From the NCBI GenBank assembly GCA_964579145.1, contig CAZOGB010000002.1, positions 592-64,591 of the forward strand: a stretch of 64,000 bases of DNA, written 5' to 3'. The translations under genes and the position numbers were made by a program. The DNA comes from an uncultured bacterium. Lineage in GTDB: Bacteria > Armatimonadota > HRBIN16. Below are positions 52-7,001 of this stretch, in pieces; the first letter of the stretch is position 1; each line of letters opens with the position of its first letter. The notes under the pieces were generated by a model. It was not told the DNA's origin. It saw nothing but the letters and a program-made list of their open reading frames with translations, and made no database searches.

Positions 52-2262
52 TTATCGCGCTCCCACGATGCCGACGTCGATGTACTGCCCGCCGGTGGTC
101 TGGCGACAGTGTACCGCAATTGTGTTCTCGCCCTGTTTCAGCGACGCCTTCAGGGCATCAGTGATGATATGCTCCGCGTAGCCGGTGAGAAAGCCTTTGA
201 AGCTCGCTACCAGCCTGCCGTTGACGTAGACCTCCGCGTCCTCATCGTGGTGCACCACCAGCGCGAGGTGTTTAAAATCCACCTCCGACAGATGGAACCG
301 CTTGCGAAGCCAGATGTCGGAGGTGTTCCACACGGTTCGCACCACTGCTCCGGGCGTGCCCGGCGTGCCGAAGCCGCCTTCCCCCTCCGACCATGCGCTG
401 TCGTCATAGTCGGGGCGTGTCCAGCCGTCTCCTGGCTTCTGCAGGGTATAGCGCCACCGCTGTGCGCTGTGCTGTGAGGTAGCCAGTAGTTCCACCCATT
501 GGATGTCCAGCACGCGCGGCGGCTGAGTTTCGTACGCGGCGGGGCGTGCATTGATCGCCTTCAGCAGAGGCGGGTCGTACTTGGGCTGGCGGTCGTAGAA
601 GTACACGCCGTTCTGTTCCTGCTCCACGTCGGTCAGCTGGGTATAGCAGAAGCCGAACATGTTGGGGTTATCCAGCAGAACATCGGTCAGCTCCTTGTAG
701 CGTTTGAGAAACTCCTGCAGGTCGGTTTCGCCATAGCCCCAGCCCTCGCCGGTGGAATGTCCGGTGCGAATGCGCATACCGCCGTACTCGCTCACGAAAT
801 AGGGTTGACCACGATAGGCACTGCGCGGGTCGCCGGGCACGTTATTCCACGCACGGGTTCCCATCTGCTTGAAGGGCTCATACCGTTGCGCAAAGACCTG
901 GGGGTCCTGCGTGTAGTCGTGGCAGTCGTACACGTCTGTTTCGGGTACGAAATGCACGTATCCGCTGGCGTCCAGCCAGGGGCGCGAAGGGTCCATGCTT
1001 TGTGTGGTCGCCAGCAGAATCTGCGCCAGCGCGGAACCCTTACTGCTGTCGGTTTCATTCAACGGACACCAGCCGATGATGCTGGGGTGATTGCGGTCAC
1101 GCTCCAGCACCTCGCGCCATTCCTGTACGGCGTAAGTAACCGCCTCGTAGTCATTCACGTTCAACCCCCACGAGGGGTACTCGCCCCACACGATGTACCC
1201 CAGTTTATCCGCCCAGTAAAGGAAACGTGGCTCGAACACCTTCTGGTGCAAACGCGCCCCGTTAAAGCCAGCCGCCATGGACAGCTCAATGTCCCGGCGC
1301 AGGGCTTCATCGGAGGGTGCGGTGTAGATACCGTCGGGATAGAATCCCTGGTCCAGAACCAGGCGCTGGAAAACCGGTTTACCGTTAATCAGGAAGCGGT
1401 TGCCTTCAATGCTAATCTTGCGCAGACCGAAATAGCTTTTCACGACGTCCACCGGCTTGCCGTTACGCTCTACCGTTATCGTCAGGTCGTACAGGAACGG
1501 CTTACCCGGATGCCACAGTTTGACGGTGGACAGATTGAGCACGCCAATGGTGTTGCGCCAGTTCGCTGGCACCACCTCTTCGCCAACCAGCCTGCCGCCG
1601 GCATATGCTTGCAGACGCACCTTGGTACCCTTCTGTGTGCCATCCACCCAGCCCTGAAAGATTACCCGTCCACCATCGGGGTCGGGGGTCAGCTGGAAGC
1701 TTTTGAGGTAGGTATCCCCCGTCGCTTCCAGCCACACGGTCTGCCAGATGCCTGTGGTGCGGGTGTACACACAGCCGTAAGAATGTCGCTCGTGGCTCTG
1801 TTTTCCTGTTGCCTGCTTGCCGGAGCGCGTTTCATCGATCACATGCACCACCAGTTCGTTGTCGCCCGGGCGCACATGCCGGGTGATGTCAAAACGGAAG
1901 GGCGTATAGCCGCCGCGGTGCTCGCCCAGGAACGTGCCGTTGAGCCATACGCGCGCGTGCCAGTCCACCGCCCCAAAGTGCAGGAACAGGCGTTTCCCTT
2001 TCATGCTGGCGGGCACTCGAAAGTGCCGGCGATACCATACGTGCGTCATGAAGTCGGTGTTGCCGATGCCGGAGAGTTCGCTTTCCGGTGCGAAAGGCAC
2101 CAGAATGCGCTGAGAAAAGCTTTTGCCCGATATCCAGCCCTGTTGTTCGCCGATGCCTTCGTGGTCTATCTCGAACTCCCACTCCCCGTTCAGGTTGAGC
2201 CACAGCTCGCGCTGAAAATCGGGACGCGGATGTTCAGGTCGCGGAATGTTTGTTTGCGCCAT
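52..2262 (-). CDS. glycoside hydrolase family 2 (beta-mannosidase/beta-galactosidase-like), cytoplasmic
   Basis: 754-aa ORF 52..2316 with a GH2-like sugar-binding plus TIM-barrel organisation; start trimmed to the ATG at 2262, preceded by AGGAG with 8-nt spacing; no signal peptide. Confidence 0.7.
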   Translation of the reverse strand: MAQTNIPRPEHPRPDFQRELWLNLNGEWEFEIDHEGIGEQQGWISGKSFSQRILVPFAPESELSGIGNTDFMTHVWYRRHFRVPASMKGKRLFLHFGAVDWHARVWLNGTFLGEHRGGYTPFRFDITRHVRPGDNELVVHVIDETRSGKQATGKQSHERHSYGCVYTRTTGIWQTVWLEATGDTYLKSFQLTPDPDGGRVIFQGWVDGTQKGTKVRLQAYAGGRLVGEEVVPANWRNTIGVLNLSTVKLWHPGKPFLYDLTITVERNGKPVDVVKSYFGLRKISIEGNRFLINGKPVFQRLVLDQGFYPDGIYTAPSDEALRRDIELSMAAGFNGARLHQKVFEPRFLYWADKLGYIVWGEYPSWGLNVNDYEAVTYAVQEWREVLERDRNHPSIIGWCPLNETDSSKGSALAQILLATTQSMDPSRPWLDASGYVHFVPETDVYDCHDYTQDPQVFAQRYEPFKQMGTRAWNNVPGDPRSAYRGQPYFVSEYGGMRIRTGHSTGEGWGYGETDLQEFLKRYKELTDVLLDNPNMFGFCYTQLTDVEQEQNGVYFYDRQPKYDPPLLKAINARPAAYETQPPRVLDIQWVELLATSQHSAQRWRYTLQKPGDGWTRPDYDDSAWSEGEGGFGTPGTPGAVVRTVWNTSDIWLRKRFHLSEVDFKHLALVVHHDEDAEVYVNGRLVASFKGFLTGYAEHIITDALKASLKQGENTIAVHCRQTTGGQYIDVGIVGAR

Positions 2263-2457
2263 CGTGTTTACTCCTACCGTCAGCAAAAGGATCATAACCG
2301 GTACTCTGAAAGCCACTGTGTGACCCTCCGTGTGCCGTTCCGTTGTTAGTTATAATACGGGAGAGGTGTGCTCTATTCCTGTCGACATGAAGAGGAGTAT
2401 CCAACGGGAAATGGAAATATAAGACAACTCTGCGGAAAACCGGAGGGTTCTGGCGCC

Positions 2458-3006
2458 ATGCAAGACGAGATTAAAGAGGCGGTTCGCGATGTGGTAGGCA
2501 TCCTGGATGATTTGAGCAAGGAGATACGCCACCGGGCAGCGGCGCGCGTGGAGGCTCGTGACGACGGCACGGCATCTACGCTGATGGAGTTGGCTCGGCG
2601 GGTAGAGCAGTTTTCCGACAGTATCAGAAGGTGGAAACCAGCACAACAAAAAGACAGCATCAATCCACATCGCCCGGCGAAGGCGATGAAAGGGAAACTG
2701 CCTCGTGGTGTGCGCACCCCAGAGAAGGCTTTTTACCTCCCCATTCTGCAAGCGCTGGTACAACTGGGAGGTGCGGCGCCCGTGCGAAAGGTGCTGAGTC
2801 TGGTGGGCGAGCAGATGAAGGACCAGCTTCGCGACGTTGACTGGCAACCTCTCCAGAAAGACCCGAAAACTCCGCGCTGGGAAAATACGGCGATGTGGGC
2901 ACGCTATAAACTGATACAGCAAGGTCTTCTGCGCAACAACTCCCCGAAAGGCATCTGGGAAATTACTGAGGCGGGGAGACGGTATTTGGAAGAGCATAGT
3001 CAATGA
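2458..3006 (+). CDS. hypothetical protein with a helical N-terminus and a C-terminal Mrr_N-like winged-helix domain
   Basis: C-terminus (LPILQALVQLGG...RWENTAMWARYKLIQQGLL...KGIWEITEAGRRYLEE) matches the restriction-system Mrr N-terminal wHTH pattern; start set to the ATG at 2458 after GGAGGG; its stop overlaps the next gene's start as ATGA (3003-3006). Confidence 0.5.
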   Translation: MQDEIKEAVRDVVGILDDLSKEIRHRAAARVEARDDGTASTLMELARRVEQFSDSIRRWKPAQQKDSINPHRPAKAMKGKLPRGVRTPEKAFYLPILQALVQLGGAAPVRKVLSLVGEQMKDQLRDVDWQPLQKDPKTPRWENTAMWARYKLIQQGLLRNNSPKGIWEITEAGRRYLEEHSQ

Positions 3007-3290
3007 AAGACTATCATAACAACCTGTTCTACAGCGAAGAGGACGTTGGCTATATTGCAGATATTCCTGACCTGCCGGGCTGTTCCGCTTTCGGCGAAAC
3101 CCCGGAAGAGGCTCTGCGCGAGGTGCTTATCGCGAAGCAAGCGTGGCTGGAATCTGCACGCGCGGAAGGCGAGCCAATACCCGCCGCCCCGTTACCGACC
3201 TGTGGTGTATCAGCAGGTGGATTGAACGGCTATCAATCTGCCTCTATCCCATGCCAACGTCGAACCGGTACTCTCCCGAACCGATGTTGA
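3003..3290 (+). CDS. HicB-like antitoxin family protein (UPF0150)
   Basis: N-terminal 60 aa (MKDYHNNLFYSEEDVGYIADIPDLPGCSAFGETPEEALREVLIAKQAWLE) is the classic HicB/UPF0150 signature; the ORF runs to 3290 and overlaps the convergent GH78 3' end, so the true C-terminus is uncertain. Confidence 0.55.
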   Translation: MKDYHNNLFYSEEDVGYIADIPDLPGCSAFGETPEEALREVLIAKQAWLESARAEGEPIPAAPLPTCGVSAGGLNGYQSASIPCQRRTGTLPNRC

Positions 3291-5862
3291 CCACCACAAA
3301 TCCGCGCTCGGCGCCGCGAACCTGTAATCCTTCTGCCTCGTCTAAAGGCTTGCCGCTTTCGGTGACAGCGCCCACATCCACCGCAGGCAGATAGACGGTC
3401 GCGCTGGTGTTGGCGGGAACGGTCACCTTCCAGTGCAGTCGTCCCCCTTCCCTGCACCACTCGCTGAGGATCATTCCGCGTACGGAACGGTAGCTTGCCC
3501 TTGCCCATTCTATGCCCGGCACGAGATGGGGCTTCAGCACGAAATGCCTGAAACCGGGCGTGTTTGCGCAGGGACGTATGCCCGCGATACCGTAGAAAAA
3601 CCACGCATCGAACCCTCCCTGCATGGGATGATTGCAGGAGCGCGGGCCTTCCTGCTGTTCAATCTCAGGCTCGCTCCACCATTCCCACAGCGTGGTTGCA
3701 CCTAACGAGAACAGATATCCGATGCTGGGATAGTCGGTTTGGTGCAGGATAGTCATTGCCACATCCCCATGCCCGTACTCACTCAACGCCCAGAACAGAT
3801 GACGCAGACCCAGAATGCCTGTAGAATGATGCCCGCGATGCCGTTCCATTACATCCCGCGCAAGGCTGTCCGCAACTGCCTGCTCCATCCCCTGCGGCAC
3901 CAGCCCCCATGCCAGCGCGAGCACATCCGCCGTTTGACTGCCATAAGTGCGCTCTTCGGCGTTGAAGAAGCGACGATTGAACGCCTCACGTATCTGCACC
4001 GCAAGCTGTTCAAACGCGCTGGCATCTTCCGTTTTGCCCAGCACCTGCGCCACGCGCTGCATCATGCAGGCATCCAGATAGAAAACCGCGGTGGATGTGA
4101 TGGGAATAGGCGTATTGCCGGGCACCGAGCCGGGCGCACACCAGTCCCCCAGCCCCGCCGACACAATCATGTCCTGCGCGCCGTCCCGCAGGTGTTCCAC
4201 CCACCGTTTCATGGTGTCGTAGTGCTTTTCCAGCACGGCGGTATCGCCGTAGTACACGTAGAGATAGTAGGGTATCTGTACGATAGCCGTTCCCCAGTCT
4301 GGTGACGCCTCACCGATTTTGCGCTTACCGGGCGCCACAAAGGTGGGCAGTCCCTTCTCGGTTAGCGAGGTTTCTATGTCCTCCAGATACTTGCTCCAGA
4401 AAGGCGCCATTTCAAAATTATAGATGGTCATCTCCGCCGAGACGTGCGCGTCGCCCAGCCAGCCACATCGCTCGCGGTGTGGGCAGTCGGTGGGCACGCT
4501 GTGCAGGTTACTCACCTCTGTCCACAGAGCAGTGCGATGGATGCGGTTCAGCATTTCATCAGAGCACTCAAATGTGCCCGCTGGCTGAACAGCGGTGTGC
4601 ACCACCACTCCCTCCAGCATGTCCAGCGTGGGCGTGCCCGGATAGCCTGTCATCTCCACATAGCGGAAGCCGTGATAGGTAAAGCGCGGTTCCCAGACTT
4701 CTACGCCCCTGCCTTTACAGGTGTAACGGTCGGTCTGCACCACATTGGTCGCGAAAACGCCGGTGCTGGCGGGGTCGATGCCGCCATCGGGATGCAGTTC
4801 CTCGGCGAAACGCAGGGTGATGGTCGTGCCTTCGGGAGCCTCCACCTTCAGCCTTGCCCAGCCGGCGAAGTTCTGTCCCATGTCATATACCCACACGCCC
4901 GGCTGTACCTGCCACAGGCTGATGGGCTGAAGTGTTTTTATCCGTTGGATGGGAGGCATCAGCTGGCTTTGCAGTCGCCTGGTCGGGGACGGAATCATCC
5001 GTACGGGCTGACACGCCGAATCGTCAAACGAAGCGGTGCTCCAGCCGGGCACTTCGAGCCGCGCGTCGTACTCTTCGCCAGCGTAGACATTGTTTGTGAG
5101 CACCGGTCCGGGGAAAGTTTTCCACGATCCGTCGGAGCAGATGAGTTCGGTTGTGCCGTCCTCGTACTCCAGAACCATCTGGAAGAGAGCGCACGGAAGC
5201 CCATACGACATTCCACCCCACACCACAGCCTGATGGAACCACCCGTTGCCCAGCATGATGCCCACCGCGTTCTCGCCCGGCGTCAGCAGGTGCGTGATGT
5301 TGTATACCACGTACAGCGTGCGCTGTTCGTAGTCTGTCTGAGCGGGGTCGAGCACATGGTCGCCCACGTGCACGCCGTTCACCCAGAGCTCGTAATAACC
5401 CAGCCCGCATACCAGCGCACGTGCCCGCCTTACCGGTGCACTCACCAGAAACGCTTTGCGGAGCAGAGGAGCCGGTTCCGCCTGCGGCGCCGAAATCCAC
5501 TGCGCCTTCCACTCCTCGGGGTGCAGGATGCCCATCTCCCACCAGGAAATCTCGCTCCACTCGGATGGGTTCCCCAGAGCATCCCACACCTGCACCTTCC
5601 AGTAACATCGCTGAAGCGACTGGAGGGGCTTGCCTGCGTAGGAAATGTGGGTGGTCTGGTCGGTTTCCACCCTGCCCGTGTCCCACAGGTCTCCCTCATC
5701 GCGGGCGAGCAGGTCGGGACTGCTGGCGACCAGAATGCGGTAAGCGGTTTGCCTCTGTGCGCGTTCGCGCGACCACAGCGTCCAGCTCAGGCGCGGCTGT
5801 GGCACATCCACCCCCATCGGGCGCGGCAGATATTCACAGCGAAGGTCCATGGGTATCATCAT
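3244..5862 (-). CDS. alpha-L-rhamnosidase (GH78)
   Basis: About 870 aa with the GH78 N-terminal beta-sandwich and six-hairpin catalytic domain signature; start trimmed to the ATGATG at 5862-5857, 14 nt after the upstream stop. Confidence 0.8.
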   Translation of the reverse strand: MMIPMDLRCEYLPRPMGVDVPQPRLSWTLWSRERAQRQTAYRILVASSPDLLARDEGDLWDTGRVETDQTTHISYAGKPLQSLQRCYWKVQVWDALGNPSEWSEISWWEMGILHPEEWKAQWISAPQAEPAPLLRKAFLVSAPVRRARALVCGLGYYELWVNGVHVGDHVLDPAQTDYEQRTLYVVYNITHLLTPGENAVGIMLGNGWFHQAVVWGGMSYGLPCALFQMVLEYEDGTTELICSDGSWKTFPGPVLTNNVYAGEEYDARLEVPGWSTASFDDSACQPVRMIPSPTRRLQSQLMPPIQRIKTLQPISLWQVQPGVWVYDMGQNFAGWARLKVEAPEGTTITLRFAEELHPDGGIDPASTGVFATNVVQTDRYTCKGRGVEVWEPRFTYHGFRYVEMTGYPGTPTLDMLEGVVVHTAVQPAGTFECSDEMLNRIHRTALWTEVSNLHSVPTDCPHRERCGWLGDAHVSAEMTIYNFEMAPFWSKYLEDIETSLTEKGLPTFVAPGKRKIGEASPDWGTAIVQIPYYLYVYYGDTAVLEKHYDTMKRWVEHLRDGAQDMIVSAGLGDWCAPGSVPGNTPIPITSTAVFYLDACMMQRVAQVLGKTEDASAFEQLAVQIREAFNRRFFNAEERTYGSQTADVLALAWGLVPQGMEQAVADSLARDVMERHRGHHSTGILGLRHLFWALSEYGHGDVAMTILHQTDYPSIGYLFSLGATTLWEWWSEPEIEQQEGPRSCNHPMQGGFDAWFFYGIAGIRPCANTPGFRHFVLKPHLVPGIEWARASYRSVRGMILSEWCREGGRLHWKVTVPANTSATVYLPAVDVGAVTESGKPLDEAEGLQVRGAERGFVVVNIGSGEYRFDVGMG

Positions 5863-5876
5863 GGCGAATGTATTCG

Positions 5877-7001
5877 TCAGTTGCACCAGTAATCCTGCGT
5901 TACAGGACGATTCTGTATCTCCCTCAAAAACGCTTCCGCTTCCTGCACGCTGGCGAACGCCTCTCCAACCGTCAACCACACTCCCTTTCGCCCCACCTGT
6001 TCCAGCACGTCCAGCGCATCCTGAGCGGTCTCTGCCAGCACCTGAACGCTTTTACCGGCACGCAGGCACTGGCGGTATACCTCCACCCATCGCGCCGCCG
6101 GTCCCCTGCCCGCTCCGTATACCCACTGTACGGCATGGAGGTTGGGTAGCTCCAGCAGAAGGGGCAAGTGTTTCAGAGCATCGGGTCCGTCCAGATGGAA
6201 GATGCTACGCTCTAAGGGTTCCATCTCGAACAGGATGTCGGGCAATATCATCTCCCGCGCCATGTCCACCGACACCATGCACCAGAAGTCGCAACTGGGC
6301 ACATAATAGCGTCCCTGATGGTATGCGGTTAGCCACGTCGTGCAACCGAAGCCTGCTTCCGCTATCCGGCGATATGAGCGTTCGAACGCATCCACAAACG
6401 CCTTTGCGACATGCCTGCCCGCCTGAACCACGAGATCTGGGCAGTCGATGAGGTCGGTGCACAGCGCTTGCGGGTCGCGCAGGGCGGCGAGAATATCGTA
6501 ATTGCCGTGCAGGTCAGTAATGCCGACGATGTAGCGACCTTCGCATCGCTGGATGGCATAGTCCGTCATGCGTTCTATCGTTTGCCAGTAGATGTTATCG
6601 AAGTTCGGCGGTGCTTCCAGAATGCGATACCAGTCCTCTGGTTCGTGTACGGCGGGTTTTGACCAGCTCGTGCCCTCCGAGAACTCCAGCTCGCACCCGA
6701 ACAGCGTGGCAGTAGTCTCGGGACCGAGGTTGGGCCAGTACACGGGGAAGCTATCGCCGACGTATTCATGGCATTCCATCCAGGCGATGGCACTCTCTAC
6801 CGCGTACTCCACGTCCATCCACCGTTCGCGCAGAGAGCGATGTTGCTTGACCGGTCCCTGATAGGGGCGCGAGGGTGCCACATACAGAGTGACGGGAGGG
6901 CGGTCAATCACTTCCCCTACCCACCATGCTTCGAACCGTTCCACTGTTTTTTCAAAGTCCGGTTTCCATTCCAGCGTGCGAATCATGAGAGCTTCCTCCA
7001 T
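5877..7001 (-). CDS. uroporphyrinogen decarboxylase (URO-D)-like family protein, paralogue 1
   Basis: URO-D/MtaA-like TIM-barrel family; candidate starts at M83 (7001) or at M88 (6986), the latter overlapping the upstream stop as ATGA; the N-terminal 82 aa of the track ORF are antisense read-through. Confidence 0.6.
   Translation of the reverse strand: MEEALMIRTLEWKPDFEKTVERFEAWWVGEVIDRPPVTLYVAPSRPYQGPVKQHRSLRERWMDVEYAVESAIAWMECHEYVGDSFPVYWPNLGPETTATLFGCELEFSEGTSWSKPAVHEPEDWYRILEAPPNFDNIYWQTIERMTDYAIQRCEGRYIVGITDLHGNYDILAALRDPQALCTDLIDCPDLVVQAGRHVAKAFVDAFERSYRRIAEAGFGCTTWLTAYHQGRYYVPSCDFWCMVSVDMAREMILPDILFEMEPLERSIFHLDGPDALKHLPLLLELPNLHAVQWVYGAGRGPAARWVEVYRQCLRAGKSVQVLAETAQDALDVLEQVGRKGVWLTVGEAFASVQEAEAFLREIQNRPVTQDYWCN

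What the first reader, a model, noticed from the sequence alone, without database searches (positions are those of the whole stretch)
2458..3290. Mrr_N-type winged-helix protein translationally coupled to a HicB-like antitoxin, with no HicA present
HicB antitoxins normally pair with the small dsRBD-fold HicA mRNA interferase. Here the upstream partner, coupled by an ATGA stop/start overlap at 3003-3006, is a roughly 180-aa protein with a coiled-coil N-terminus and a C-terminal domain matching the Mrr restriction-protein N-terminal wHTH (RWENTAMWARYKLIQQGLL...GIWEITEAGRRYL). I saw no HicA-like ORF in any frame nearby. The pair sits between two glycosidase genes, as a small inserted module would. 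It may be an undescribed toxin-antitoxin or defence-type pairing in which a nucleic-acid-binding wHTH protein replaces HicA.
Basis: partly seen in the sequence, partly recalled or inferred. Interest (0 to 1): 0.6.

Follow-up and report, generated by a model that had tools for sequence, protein, structure and literature searches.

The report
Decayed hicAB locus, toxin gene replaced
The two genes are real, but the evidence points to the remains of an ordinary HicA/HicB toxin-antitoxin module whose toxin gene was overwritten by an unrelated small DNA-binding gene, not to a new toxin-antitoxin system.

Summary
A 182-aa protein (2458-3006) has a helical-hairpin N-terminus and a C-terminal Mrr_N winged helix (Pfam E=2e-17). 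Its stop overlaps by ATGA the start of a HicB-like ORF (3003-3290), and the 64-kb window contains no HicA.

The functional reading is not supported.
- The HicB belongs to a very large 72-73-aa family matching Gerdes' Class 1 hicAB. Its usual upstream partner is an ~84-aa HicA, most often joined by the same ATGA overlap.
- Sister Chthonomonadetes genomes have the same GH2/rhamnosidase slot. There HicB is preceded only by a 26-codon C-terminal stump of HicA.
- In the window's lineage the Mrr_N coding sequence replaces that stump almost exactly, from the start codon to ...CAATGA. The coupling is therefore inherited from the old hicA-hicB junction.
- In 80 genome loci of the Mrr_N family, only 3 have any HicB-like ORF. 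The one recurrent neighbour is a type IIG-like methyltransferase and/or an HKD-SNF2 helicase (24 of 80).
- HicB is frameshifted in this window by an extra C at 3180-3182. In a 97%-identical relative it is a pseudogene while the Mrr_N gene stays intact, which argues against Mrr_N being a HicB-neutralised toxin.

Verdict: an orphan, decaying antitoxin next to a selectively maintained gene (dN/dS about 0.2). Low to moderate interest.

The parts
2317..2457 (+). Divergent intergenic leader between the GH2 start and the Mrr_N start. It presumably carries the old hicAB promoter and leader. The GGAGGG Shine-Dalgarno-like motif lies about 10 nt before the ATG.
   Evidence: Identity to the Mrr_N-less relative L009 is 100% for 2300-2359 and then falls: 26/30, 23/30, 19/30 and 15/30 towards the start codon. 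In L009 the homologous last ~60 nt belong to the HicA remnant (tblastn, HicA aa 45-84, E about 5e-4). The consensus scan found no sigma-70 match here.
2458..3006 (+). Gene for a 182-aa helical-hairpin plus Mrr_N winged-helix protein. Hairpin aa 1-57 = nt 2458-2628; basic disordered linker aa 58-88 = nt 2629-2721; winged helix aa 89-181 = nt 2722-3000.
   Evidence: Pfam Mrr_N E=2.1e-17. AF2 model pLDDT 86. Foldseek matches are only generic winged-helix DNA binders. Full-length family of about 180-200-aa proteins, with 801 50%-identity clusters at E<=1e-30. dN/dS is 0.20 against L175 at dS 0.41.
3003..3006 (+). ATGA stop/start overlap giving translational coupling.
   Evidence: Read directly from the sequence. 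The same junction is present between HicA and HicB in 35 of 80 family loci and between the HicA stump and HicB in L009.
3003..3225 (+). Class 1 (no DNA-binding domain) HicB antitoxin gene at its canonical extent. It is frameshifted in this window.
   Evidence: The first 60 aa are 100% identical to P0037, a 73-aa protein. The canonical C-terminus is found in the +1 frame at 3136-3222. The AF2 model of the intact protein shows a beta-beta-beta-alpha core at aa 7-55.
3180..3182 (+). CCC run containing one extra C relative to L008, L009 and L010. This is the frameshift that creates the 95-aa ORF 3003-3290.
   Evidence: Alignment A2. The lost tail includes the >=90%-conserved residues P62, Y64, P66 and Y69.
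52..2316 (-). Context only: GH2 glycosidase, the syntenic left flank.
   Evidence: Pfam Glyco_hydro_2 domains on the orthologues in L008 and L009. dN/dS 0.08 against L009.
3244..5979 (-). Context only: alpha-L-rhamnosidase, the syntenic right flank, convergent with HicB.
   Evidence: Pfam Bac_rhamnosid domains on the L009 orthologue. dN/dS 0.10.

Best explanation
This is a degenerate Class 1 hicAB toxin-antitoxin locus.

Shown:
- The ancestral module was an ~84-aa HicA followed by a 73-aa HicB lacking a DNA-binding domain, joined by an ATGA overlap. It sat between the GH2 and rhamnosidase genes.
- In this Chthonomonadetes clade the toxin gene was destroyed. Sister genomes keep only its last ~24-40 codons.
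- In the window's lineage the coding sequence of a stand-alone hairpin plus Mrr_N winged-helix gene replaced that stump almost exactly. The left junction is at or next to the ATG and the right junction is at CAATGA. It therefore inherited the old leader and the coupled junction to hicB.

Inferred:
- The two genes are probably still co-transcribed, but they are not a functional toxin/antidote pair.
- The Mrr_N protein is a selectively maintained, non-enzymatic DNA-binding protein. The hairpin probably mediates dimerisation and the winged helix DNA contact.
- Its family lives in defence and TA islands, most recurrently as the last gene of operons that encode a type IIG-like methyltransferase plus an HKD-SNF2 helicase. 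Its most likely role is DNA-binding accessory or regulator.
- HicB is an orphan antitoxin. At most it could neutralise HicA paralogues in trans. In this window it carries a frameshift and so appears to be decaying.
For: 1. Usual partner. Of 72 assessable metagenome loci of this HicB family, 39 have a full HicA directly upstream, 18 have a fragmented one and 15 have none. The partner passes Pfam HicA_toxin at 33.3 bits against a cut-off of 27. ATGA is the predominant junction.
2. Synteny. L009-L014, including GCA_037478795.1 and GCA_013314755.1, have GH2, HicB and rhamnosidase in the same arrangement with no Mrr_N gene. In its place is MQPYQLRQIVQLIQKYNLSVREESDQ*, which matches HicA profile positions 61-83 and HicA aa 45-84 by tblastn at E about 5e-4.
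3. Junctions. The right junction is sharp at CAATGA. On the left, identity decays up to the ATG.
4. No conserved linkage. Among the Mrr_N family's immediate neighbours, 11 of 45 upstream are Eco57I/MmeI-type methyltransferases and only 2 of 46 downstream are HicB-like. A HicB profile finds HicB-like ORFs in only 3 of 80 loci. A type IIG methyltransferase and/or HKD-SNF2 helicase lies within 5 kb in 24 of 80 (PADLOC names). The other contexts checked are defence or TA islands.
5. HicB is dispensable when Mrr_N is present. L001 has a frameshift at HicB codon 6 and substitutions at invariant or near-invariant columns (F30L, P34R, E36Q), yet its Mrr_N ORF is an intact 182 aa. The window itself carries a HicB frameshift.
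6. The Mrr_N gene is under purifying selection (omega 0.20) and has no catalytic domain.
7. Literature. Class 1 hicAB is described as compact, lacking a DNA-binding domain, and overlapping (PMC10865869, section 6). Orphan antitoxins from degrading TA pairs are common (PMC7192599).
Against: - The pair has persisted with the overlap intact across substantial divergence (Mrr_N dS 0.41 between the window and L175). Both genes are intact in two of the four copies, and intact HicB copies are under purifying selection (omega 0.12-0.16).
- All three HicB-like ORFs found in the 80 Mrr_N-family loci lie immediately next to the Mrr_N gene (+49, +253 and -63 bp). This is more than a random scatter within 10 kb would give. 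One of them, L055, has no HicA and sits inside a type IIG/HKD-SNF2 operon.
- The frameshifts in the window and L001 are in short homopolymer runs and could in principle be assembly errors. The L001 substitutions argue otherwise for that copy.
- No function of the Mrr_N protein was demonstrated. 'Regulator or accessory' is an inference from fold and neighbourhood.
Confidence: 0.72

Rival explanations
1. A real new two-gene toxin-antitoxin or defence module. The Mrr_N winged-helix protein is the effector or sensor, for example toxic through DNA binding, and the DBD-less HicB is its antidote or partner.
For: - The gene occupies the toxin slot exactly and keeps translational coupling in four independent assemblies.
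- Both genes are under purifying selection where intact.
- Mrr_N and a HicB-like ORF are also adjacent, independently, in Caldisericota (L055, no HicA), Patescibacteria (L074) and Anaerolineales (L024).
- The literature accepts that non-toxin-domain genes next to orphan antitoxins may be novel toxins (PMC7192599). 'Guilt by association' has found new toxins before (PMC3141249).
Against: - 77 of 80 family loci have no HicB-like ORF.
- L074 has its own HicA and the L024 HicB is truncated.
- HicB is a pseudogene in L001 and frameshifted in the window while the Mrr_N gene stays intact. That would be lethal or strongly counter-selected if Mrr_N were a HicB-neutralised toxin.
- The protein has no enzymatic domain and matches only generic winged-helix folds.
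- The overlap is inherited from hicA-hicB.
Confidence: 0.12
2. A functional partnership of a different kind. The winged-helix protein supplies the DNA-binding function that Class 1 HicB lacks. Together they would act as a split regulator or antitoxin, autoregulating the operon or answering to HicA toxins encoded elsewhere in the genome.
For: - Class 1 HicB has no DNA-binding domain, and how such operons are regulated is an open question (PMC10865869, section 6).
- The Mrr_N protein is a DNA binder by fold.
- The two genes are coupled.
- Orphan HicB is under purifying selection in this clade even without a HicA in cis.
Against: - Sister genomes keep HicB under selection without any Mrr_N gene.
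- HicB is lost in L001 while Mrr_N is retained.
- There is no family-wide linkage.
- No interaction evidence of any kind is available here.
Confidence: 0.08
3. An assembly or annotation artefact: a chimeric contig or spurious ORFs.
For: The 95-aa HicB ORF is indeed a frameshift product, and the extra C could be an assembly error.
Against: - The same Mrr_N-HicB arrangement occurs in four independent assemblies from different samples: the window, SRR24079451, SRR11582145 and SRR12999147.
- Both proteins have strong family support.
- The Mrr_N gene shows purifying selection.
Confidence: 0.02

Closest known systems
Class 1 hicAB modules (small, compact hicAB; Gerdes 2024, mBio, PMC10865869)
   Same: - HicB is about 73 aa with a partial RNase-H-like beta-beta-beta-alpha core and no DNA-binding domain.
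- The gene order has the partner upstream.
- The genes overlap, which suggests translational coupling.
- In 39 of 72 related loci the upstream partner is a bona fide ~84-aa HicA.
   Different: - There is no HicA here.
- The toxin slot holds a hairpin plus Mrr_N winged-helix gene.
- The HicB copy in this window is frameshifted after codon 60.
Orphan antitoxins and degrading TA loci (e.g. the Klebsiella population survey, PMC7192599)
   Same: - An antitoxin is retained at the original site after loss of its toxin, and an unrelated CDS sits in the toxin context.
- In this HicB family 33 of 72 loci have a fragmented or absent HicA.
- Sister genomes show the HicA stump.
   Different: - The replacement is unusually exact, from start codon to stop codon, so the incoming gene inherits the coupled junction.
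- The replacement gene is itself conserved (omega 0.2).
Mrr-type (type IV) restriction endonucleases, which carry the Mrr_N domain at their N-terminus
   Same: The C-terminal half is a clear Mrr_N winged helix (Pfam E=2e-17). PADLOC gives a weak hit to the N-terminal part of mREase_IV (E=0.0046).
   Different: - There is no Mrr_cat / PD-(D/E)xK nuclease domain.
- The winged helix is C-terminal and is preceded by a helical hairpin.
- The protein is only 182 aa.
Type IIG-like methyltransferase plus HKD(PLD)-SNF2 helicase operons (PADLOC REase_MTase_IIG and 'C3a139 HKD+Snf2'; DISARM DrmMI/DrmD-like components)
   Same: Homologues of the 182-aa protein are the last gene of such operons or lie beside them in 24 of 80 genome loci and in several metagenome contigs.
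   Different: The window contains no such methyltransferase or helicase. Here the gene stands alone in a former TA slot.

Membership tests
Class 1 hicAB toxin-antitoxin module | HicB antitoxin with a partial RNase-H-like fold (Pfam HicB_lk_antitox/UPF0150), 60-90 aa, no DNA-binding domain | tested here: met
   Pfam scores 28.5 bits against a cut-off of 27. The protein is 100% identical over 60 aa to 73-aa family members. The AF2 model shows a beta-beta-beta-alpha core. Caveat: the window copy has a frameshifted tail.
Class 1 hicAB toxin-antitoxin module | Adjacent HicA toxin gene (Pfam HicA_toxin, dsRBD fold with a catalytic His) | tested here: not met
   tblastn of six HicA sequences finds no hit in the window. 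The HicA profile finds nothing upstream of HicB in L008, L001 or L175, and only a stump (positions 61-83) in L009 and L010.
Class 1 hicAB toxin-antitoxin module | Closely linked or overlapping genes (translational coupling) | tested here: met
   ATGA overlap at 3003-3006, but with a non-HicA upstream gene.
Type II toxin-antitoxin system (generic) | The two genes co-occur as a conserved pair across lineages | tested here: not met
   Only 3 of 80 Mrr_N-family loci have a HicB-like ORF, and 2 of 46 immediate downstream neighbours are HicB-like. No locus in the HicB sample has an Mrr_N partner. The pair is restricted to one syntenic site in one clade.
Type II toxin-antitoxin system (generic) | The upstream protein is growth-inhibitory and is neutralised by the antitoxin | not testable with these tools
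   Indirect evidence is against it: L001 keeps an intact Mrr_N gene with a dead HicB.
Mrr_N domain (PF14338) proteins | Significant match to the Mrr_N winged-helix profile | tested here: met
   E=2.1e-17, aa 91-178, profile positions 3-86 of 87. A winged helix is seen in the AF2 model.
Mrr-type type IV restriction endonuclease | C-terminal Mrr_cat / PD-(D/E)xK nuclease domain | tested here: not met
   Pfam finds no domain other than Mrr_N in the 182 aa. PADLOC mREase_IV matches only aa 142-181 at E=0.0046.
Small hairpin plus Mrr_N family (uncharacterised, about 180-200 aa) | Full-length alignment: N-terminal helical hairpin, basic linker, RG(L/V)RT...RW.N...GIWEIT winged helix | tested here: met
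   36 homologues. Invariant G84, T87, R140, W141, W147, W167, E168, I169 and G173. 801 clusters at E<=1e-30, mostly 180-210 aa matched end to end.
Small hairpin plus Mrr_N family (uncharacterised, about 180-200 aa) | Typical context: downstream of a type IIG-like methyltransferase and/or next to an HKD-SNF2 helicase | tested here: not met
   tblastn finds no such gene in the window. The association holds for only 24 of 80 family loci anyway.

The most novel reading that the evidence does not exclude
The hairpin plus Mrr_N winged-helix protein and a small DBD-less HicB-like protein form a real, recurrent two-gene unit. It would have arisen or been captured independently in at least four phyla: Armatimonadota, Caldisericota, Patescibacteria and Chloroflexota. 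In it the winged helix would act as the DNA-binding or sensing partner, or as an unconventional toxin, of the HicB fold, possibly as an add-on to type IIG/HKD-SNF2 restriction-like systems. The main observation not explained by chance is that every HicB-like ORF found in the 80 family loci lies directly next to the Mrr_N gene.
Probability: 0.1. Interest if true: 0.6.

Novelty: new member of a known kind. Interest (0 to 1): 0.3.

Why it matters
As it stands, this is a clean worked example of how TA loci decay. The toxin goes first and the antitoxin lingers under selection. The vacated, translationally coupled toxin slot can then be taken over by an unrelated gene, which produces gene pairs that look like new TA systems. 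That is a useful caution for 'guilt by association' toxin discovery.

Two by-products may be worth more than the original finding:
- A large uncharacterised family, at least 800 clusters at 50% identity, of hairpin plus Mrr_N proteins. It recurs as a possible third component of type IIG-like methyltransferase plus HKD-SNF2 helicase operons and is absent from PADLOC.
- Quantitative evidence that nearly half of sampled Class 1 hicAB loci have a broken or missing toxin.

If the minority reading were true, it would add a non-nuclease partner class to the HicB fold.

Tried and rejected
- A missed HicA ORF. tblastn of six HicA sequences against the whole window gave nothing, so this is rejected.
- A conserved Mrr_N-HicB linkage. 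I tested it with tblastn, Pfam on small downstream ORFs, aggregated Pfam on the immediate upstream and downstream neighbours, and a custom HicB HMM on six-frame translations of 80 loci. Only 3 of 80 loci were positive, so it is rejected as a family trait.
- A toxin-like or enzymatic fold in the 182-aa protein. Pfam, NCBIfam and PADLOC, a PDB profile search and Foldseek against PDB gave only Mrr_N or generic winged-helix matches. The hairpin gave a weak UVR/ClpC-M-domain-like hit (E=0.07), which I did not pursue.
- Phage origin of the Mrr_N family. Only 4 hits were found in 2.9 million viral contigs, so it is not phage-typical.
- A nearby restriction system that the Mrr_N gene might serve. The window contains no type IIG methyltransferase, HKD-SNF2 helicase or GmrSD.
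- Promoter and terminator consensus scan of 2250-3400. It found one weak promoter-like site inside hicB and no terminator, which was uninformative.
- Whether the window's frameshift destroys the HicB fold. The AF2 monomer model leaves the tail (aa 61-73) disordered. I can say only that a conserved tail is lost, not that the fold is broken.
- Which allele is ancestral. L175, the most divergent copy, carries Mrr_N, while the closer L009 does not (short sequences). This suggests the two alleles are exchanged by recombination, but the data are too thin to resolve it.
Full report
**1. What is there**

On the + strand, ORF 2458-3006 encodes 182 aa and ORF 3003-3290 encodes 95 aa. They share the tetranucleotide ATGA at 3003-3006.

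The 182-aa protein:
- It matches Pfam Mrr_N over aa 91-178 (E=2.1e-17, 63.5 bits against a cut-off of 29.5).
- Nothing else matches in Pfam or NCBIfam. In PADLOC there is only a weak hit to the N-terminal part of a type IV restriction enzyme model.
- The ATG at 2458 is the right start, not the GTG at 2368, because all homologues align from that Met.
- AlphaFold2 with a 32-sequence alignment (mean pLDDT 86) gives an antiparallel helical hairpin (aa 2-32 and 36-57), a disordered basic linker, and a winged helix (aa 89-181).
- Foldseek against PDB returns only generic winged-helix DNA binders such as STIV F93, MarR, PadR and IclR.
- A PDB profile search gives only a weak resemblance of the hairpin to the UVR-like hairpin of ClpC (E=0.07).

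The 95-aa ORF passes Pfam HicB_lk_antitox narrowly (28.5 bits against 27). However, its first 60 residues are 100% identical to a 73-aa protein from a family with more than 3000 detectable members that are about 75-95% identical to each other across phyla. No HicA is detectable anywhere in the 64-kb window.

**2. The HicB ORF is frameshifted here**

Contig L008 (Logan SRR11582145) is identical to the window across the aligned stretch of the locus, except that the window has CCC at 3180-3182 where L008, L009 and L010 have CC. Without the extra C the gene ends at 3225 and encodes the canonical 73 aa.

With the extra C, the conserved tail is replaced by 35 unrelated residues. That tail contains P62, Y64, P66 and Y69, each conserved in at least 90% of 41 family members. 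The ORF then runs 47 nt into the convergent rhamnosidase gene.

The AF2 model of the intact protein has a confident beta-beta-beta-alpha core (aa 7-55) and a disordered tail. The frameshift therefore removes a conserved but, in the monomer, unstructured segment. Whether the extra C is real or an assembly error cannot be decided here.

**3. What HicB is normally paired with**

I fetched 80 metagenome loci of this HicB family. Of these, 72 have enough upstream sequence to assess:
- 39 have a full-length ~84-aa protein directly upstream (...GFRLSRVxGSHHIF...KPYQ[VI]RQFLxLVERYNLxL...).
- 18 have a frameshifted, truncated or internally deleted version of it.
- 15 have none.

The intact partner passes Pfam HicA_toxin (33.3 bits against 27). 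The hicA stop overlaps the hicB start by ATGA in 35 of the 80 loci, which makes it the predominant junction.

This matches 'Class 1 hicAB' of Gerdes (2024). That class has HicA of 60-85 aa, HicB of 60-90 aa without a DNA-binding domain, and overlapping genes, and it has not been tested experimentally (PMC10865869, section 6).

**4. What the sister genomes show**

HicB protein P0038 (95% identical) is encoded in several Chthonomonadetes assemblies, L009-L014, including GCA_037478795.1 and GCA_013314755.1. It lies in the same slot between the orthologous GH2 and rhamnosidase genes, and there is no Mrr_N gene there.

Upstream of HicB these genomes have only a 26-codon ORF, MQPYQLRQIVQLIQKYNLSVREESDQ*, again overlapping hicB by ATGA. 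It matches the HicA profile at positions 61-83. By tblastn the similarity extends to HicA aa 45-84 (E about 5e-4). It is therefore the C-terminal stump of a destroyed hicA. Similar C-terminal-only stumps occur elsewhere in the family (L112, L117, L141).

Aligning the window to L009 shows the following:
- Identity is 100% from the GH2 start up to 2359.
- It then declines steadily to about 50% at the Mrr_N start codon. Both sequences read ...CATGCA there.
- There is no similarity through the Mrr_N coding sequence.
- Similarity returns sharply at CAATGAAAG, the last Mrr_N codon plus the hicB start.

The Mrr_N coding sequence thus replaces the hicA stump almost exactly.

**5. How old and how constrained the arrangement is**

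The Mrr_N-HicB arrangement occurs in four independent assemblies, all at this syntenic site: the window, L008, L001 (97% nt identity) and L175 (Mrr_N 85% aa identity).

| Comparison | dS | dN/dS |
|---|---|---|
| Mrr_N, window vs L175 | 0.41 | 0.20 |
| Mrr_N, window vs L001 | 0.084 | 0.40 |
| HicB, intact copies | not listed here | 0.12-0.16 |
| Flanking glycosidases | not listed here | 0.08-0.10 |

The window-L001 Mrr_N comparison rests on 14 non-synonymous and 10 synonymous differences.

In L001, hicB carries an extra A at codon 6. It also has substitutions at invariant or near-invariant family positions (F30L, P34R, E36Q). No ORF of 40 aa or more remains in the right frame, yet the Mrr_N ORF is an intact 182 aa.

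So HicB can be lost while the Mrr_N gene is kept. That is the opposite of what a HicB-neutralised toxin would allow.

GC content is 56% for both small genes against 60% for the flanks, which fits accessory DNA.

**6. Where the Mrr_N family normally lives**

The 182-aa protein belongs to a well-defined family of about 180-200-aa proteins with the same hairpin-linker-winged-helix layout. An exhaustive profile search finds 801 clusters (50% identity) at E<=1e-30, mostly matched end to end, with some tandem duplications.

In 80 genome loci spanning many phyla:
- The only recurrent neighbour is an upstream, same-strand Eco57I/MmeI-type N6-adenine methyltransferase, in 11 of 45 immediate upstream neighbours.
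- By tblastn, 24 of 80 loci have that methyltransferase and/or a fused HKD(PLD)-SNF2 helicase within 5 kb.
- PADLOC calls these proteins REase_MTase_IIG and 'C3a139 HKD+Snf2', and it has no model for the small Mrr_N protein itself.
- Immediate downstream neighbours are heterogeneous.

Other contexts checked include GmrSD, an OLD/AAA_15-type ATPase, PIN, MNT-HepT and DUF2283, which are typical of defence and TA islands. The family is rare in viral contigs, with 4 hits.

A custom HicB HMM run over six-frame translations of all 80 loci finds HicB-like ORFs in only three:
- L055 (Caldisericota): 49 bp downstream of Mrr_N, with no HicA, inside a methyltransferase/HKD-SNF2 operon.
- L074 (Patescibacteria): 253 bp downstream, followed by its own HicA.
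- L024 (Anaerolineales): a truncated copy 63 bp upstream, in a cluster of TA fragments.

There is thus no family-wide linkage. I note as unexplained that all three lie directly beside the Mrr_N gene.

**7. Interpretation**

Best-supported account (confidence about 0.72):
- A Class 1 hicAB module was inserted between two glycosidase genes before this clade diversified.
- hicA was destroyed.
- In one allele lineage the stump was overwritten by a promoter-less hairpin plus Mrr_N coding sequence, which now uses the old leader and remains coupled to hicB.

Shown: the synteny, the HicA stump, the junctions, the lack of conserved linkage, selection on the Mrr_N gene, and the decay of HicB in two of the four copies.

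Inferred: co-transcription, that the Mrr_N protein is a dimeric DNA binder acting as accessory or regulator, and that orphan HicB survives because it can neutralise HicA paralogues in trans. The literature discusses that last role for orphan antitoxins (PMC7192599).

Rival readings:
- A true new TA or defence pair, about 0.12.
- A split regulator in which the winged helix supplies the DNA-binding function that Class 1 HicB lacks, about 0.08.
- An artefact, about 0.02.

**8. Comparison with known systems, and novelty**

- The locus works like, and descends from, a Class 1 hicAB module. It fails the defining test of having a HicA, so it should be filed as a degenerate hicAB locus with an orphan HicB, not as a hicAB system.
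- The upstream protein carries the Mrr_N domain but is not an Mrr restriction enzyme, because it has no nuclease domain.
- It is a member of an uncharacterised small-protein family whose typical partners, a type IIG-like methyltransferase and an HKD-SNF2 helicase, are absent here.
- Orphan antitoxins with unrelated genes in the toxin context are common. In Klebsiella, 49% of orphan antitoxins have such a gene (PMC7192599). The kind is therefore known and this is a new instance of it.

**9. Scores**

Interest is about 0.3. The case is instructive as a warning for association-based toxin discovery and yields two side leads, but it is not a new system.

The most novel reading the evidence does not exclude is a recurrent Mrr_N/HicB-like unit. 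It has a probability of about 0.1 and would merit about 0.6 if true.

Noticed in passing
L002/L003 553-4579; L005 1-4558; L015 1340-5534; L055 184-8768; L064 175-5755; L187 1-3585: The small hairpin plus Mrr_N protein recurs as the last gene of operons that encode a type IIG-like Eco57I/MmeI methyltransferase and a fused HKD(PLD)-SNF2 helicase, or lies beside them. This holds for 24 of 80 genome loci. PADLOC has models for the two large proteins ('REase_MTase_IIG', 'C3a139 HKD+Snf2') but none for the small one. It may be an undescribed third component of that restriction-like system.
   Followed up: partly
L055 5344-5598; L074 5542-5778; L024 4735-4911: All three HicB-like ORFs found by HMM in 80 loci of about 10 kb lie immediately next to the Mrr_N-family gene (+49, +253 and -63 bp), in three different phyla. 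This is too few to call an association, but they are not scattered as chance would predict. In L055 the HicB-like gene has no HicA and sits between the Mrr_N gene and the HKD-SNF2 gene.
   Followed up: partly
L107 744-1394 and L114 1713-2363: A 216-aa ORF with no Pfam match overlaps the HicB start by ATGA in place of HicA. This is another apparent takeover of the toxin slot in the same HicB family, or possibly a novel partner.
   Followed up: partly
L095-L174 (80 metagenome loci of the 73-aa HicB family): Toxin decay is frequent in this experimentally untested Class 1 hicAB family. Of 72 assessable loci, 39 have an intact HicA, 18 have a frameshifted, truncated or internally deleted one (L118 and L163 share the same internal deletion), and 15 have none. 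HicB stays about 75-87% identical to the query throughout.
   Followed up: yes
window 3180-3182; L001 about 4561-4563: Two different single-base insertions in short homopolymer runs disrupt hicB in two close relatives: CC to CCC in the window and AA to AAA in L001. The L001 copy also has substitutions at invariant positions, so at least that one is a real pseudogene.
   Followed up: yes
window 2458-2628 (aa 1-57 of the 182-aa protein): The N-terminal helical hairpin (consensus AFEILLEEIE...DF..A..L...A..L..FR.KV..LQ.EW) weakly resembles the UVR-type hairpin of the ClpC M-domain (PDB 6emw_D, E=0.07).
   Followed up: no
L009/L010 143-842 and 844-2425 (left of the GH2 gene; beyond the window's left end): In the sister genomes a HEPN/nucleotidyltransferase (MNT-type) TA pair, an N6_N4 DNA methyltransferase and a 112-aa unknown gene lie just beyond the GH2 gene. 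The hicAB relic therefore sits at the edge of a small TA/modification cluster interleaved with glycosidase genes.
   Followed up: no
L175 versus L009 versus the window (rhamnosidase 3' end, hicB): The most divergent genome, L175 (dS about 0.4-0.6 to the window), carries the Mrr_N allele, while the closer L009 (dS about 0.2-0.3) carries the HicA-stump allele. This suggests that the two alleles are exchanged by homologous recombination within the clade and are not inherited strictly vertically. It is based on short sequences only.
   Followed up: partly
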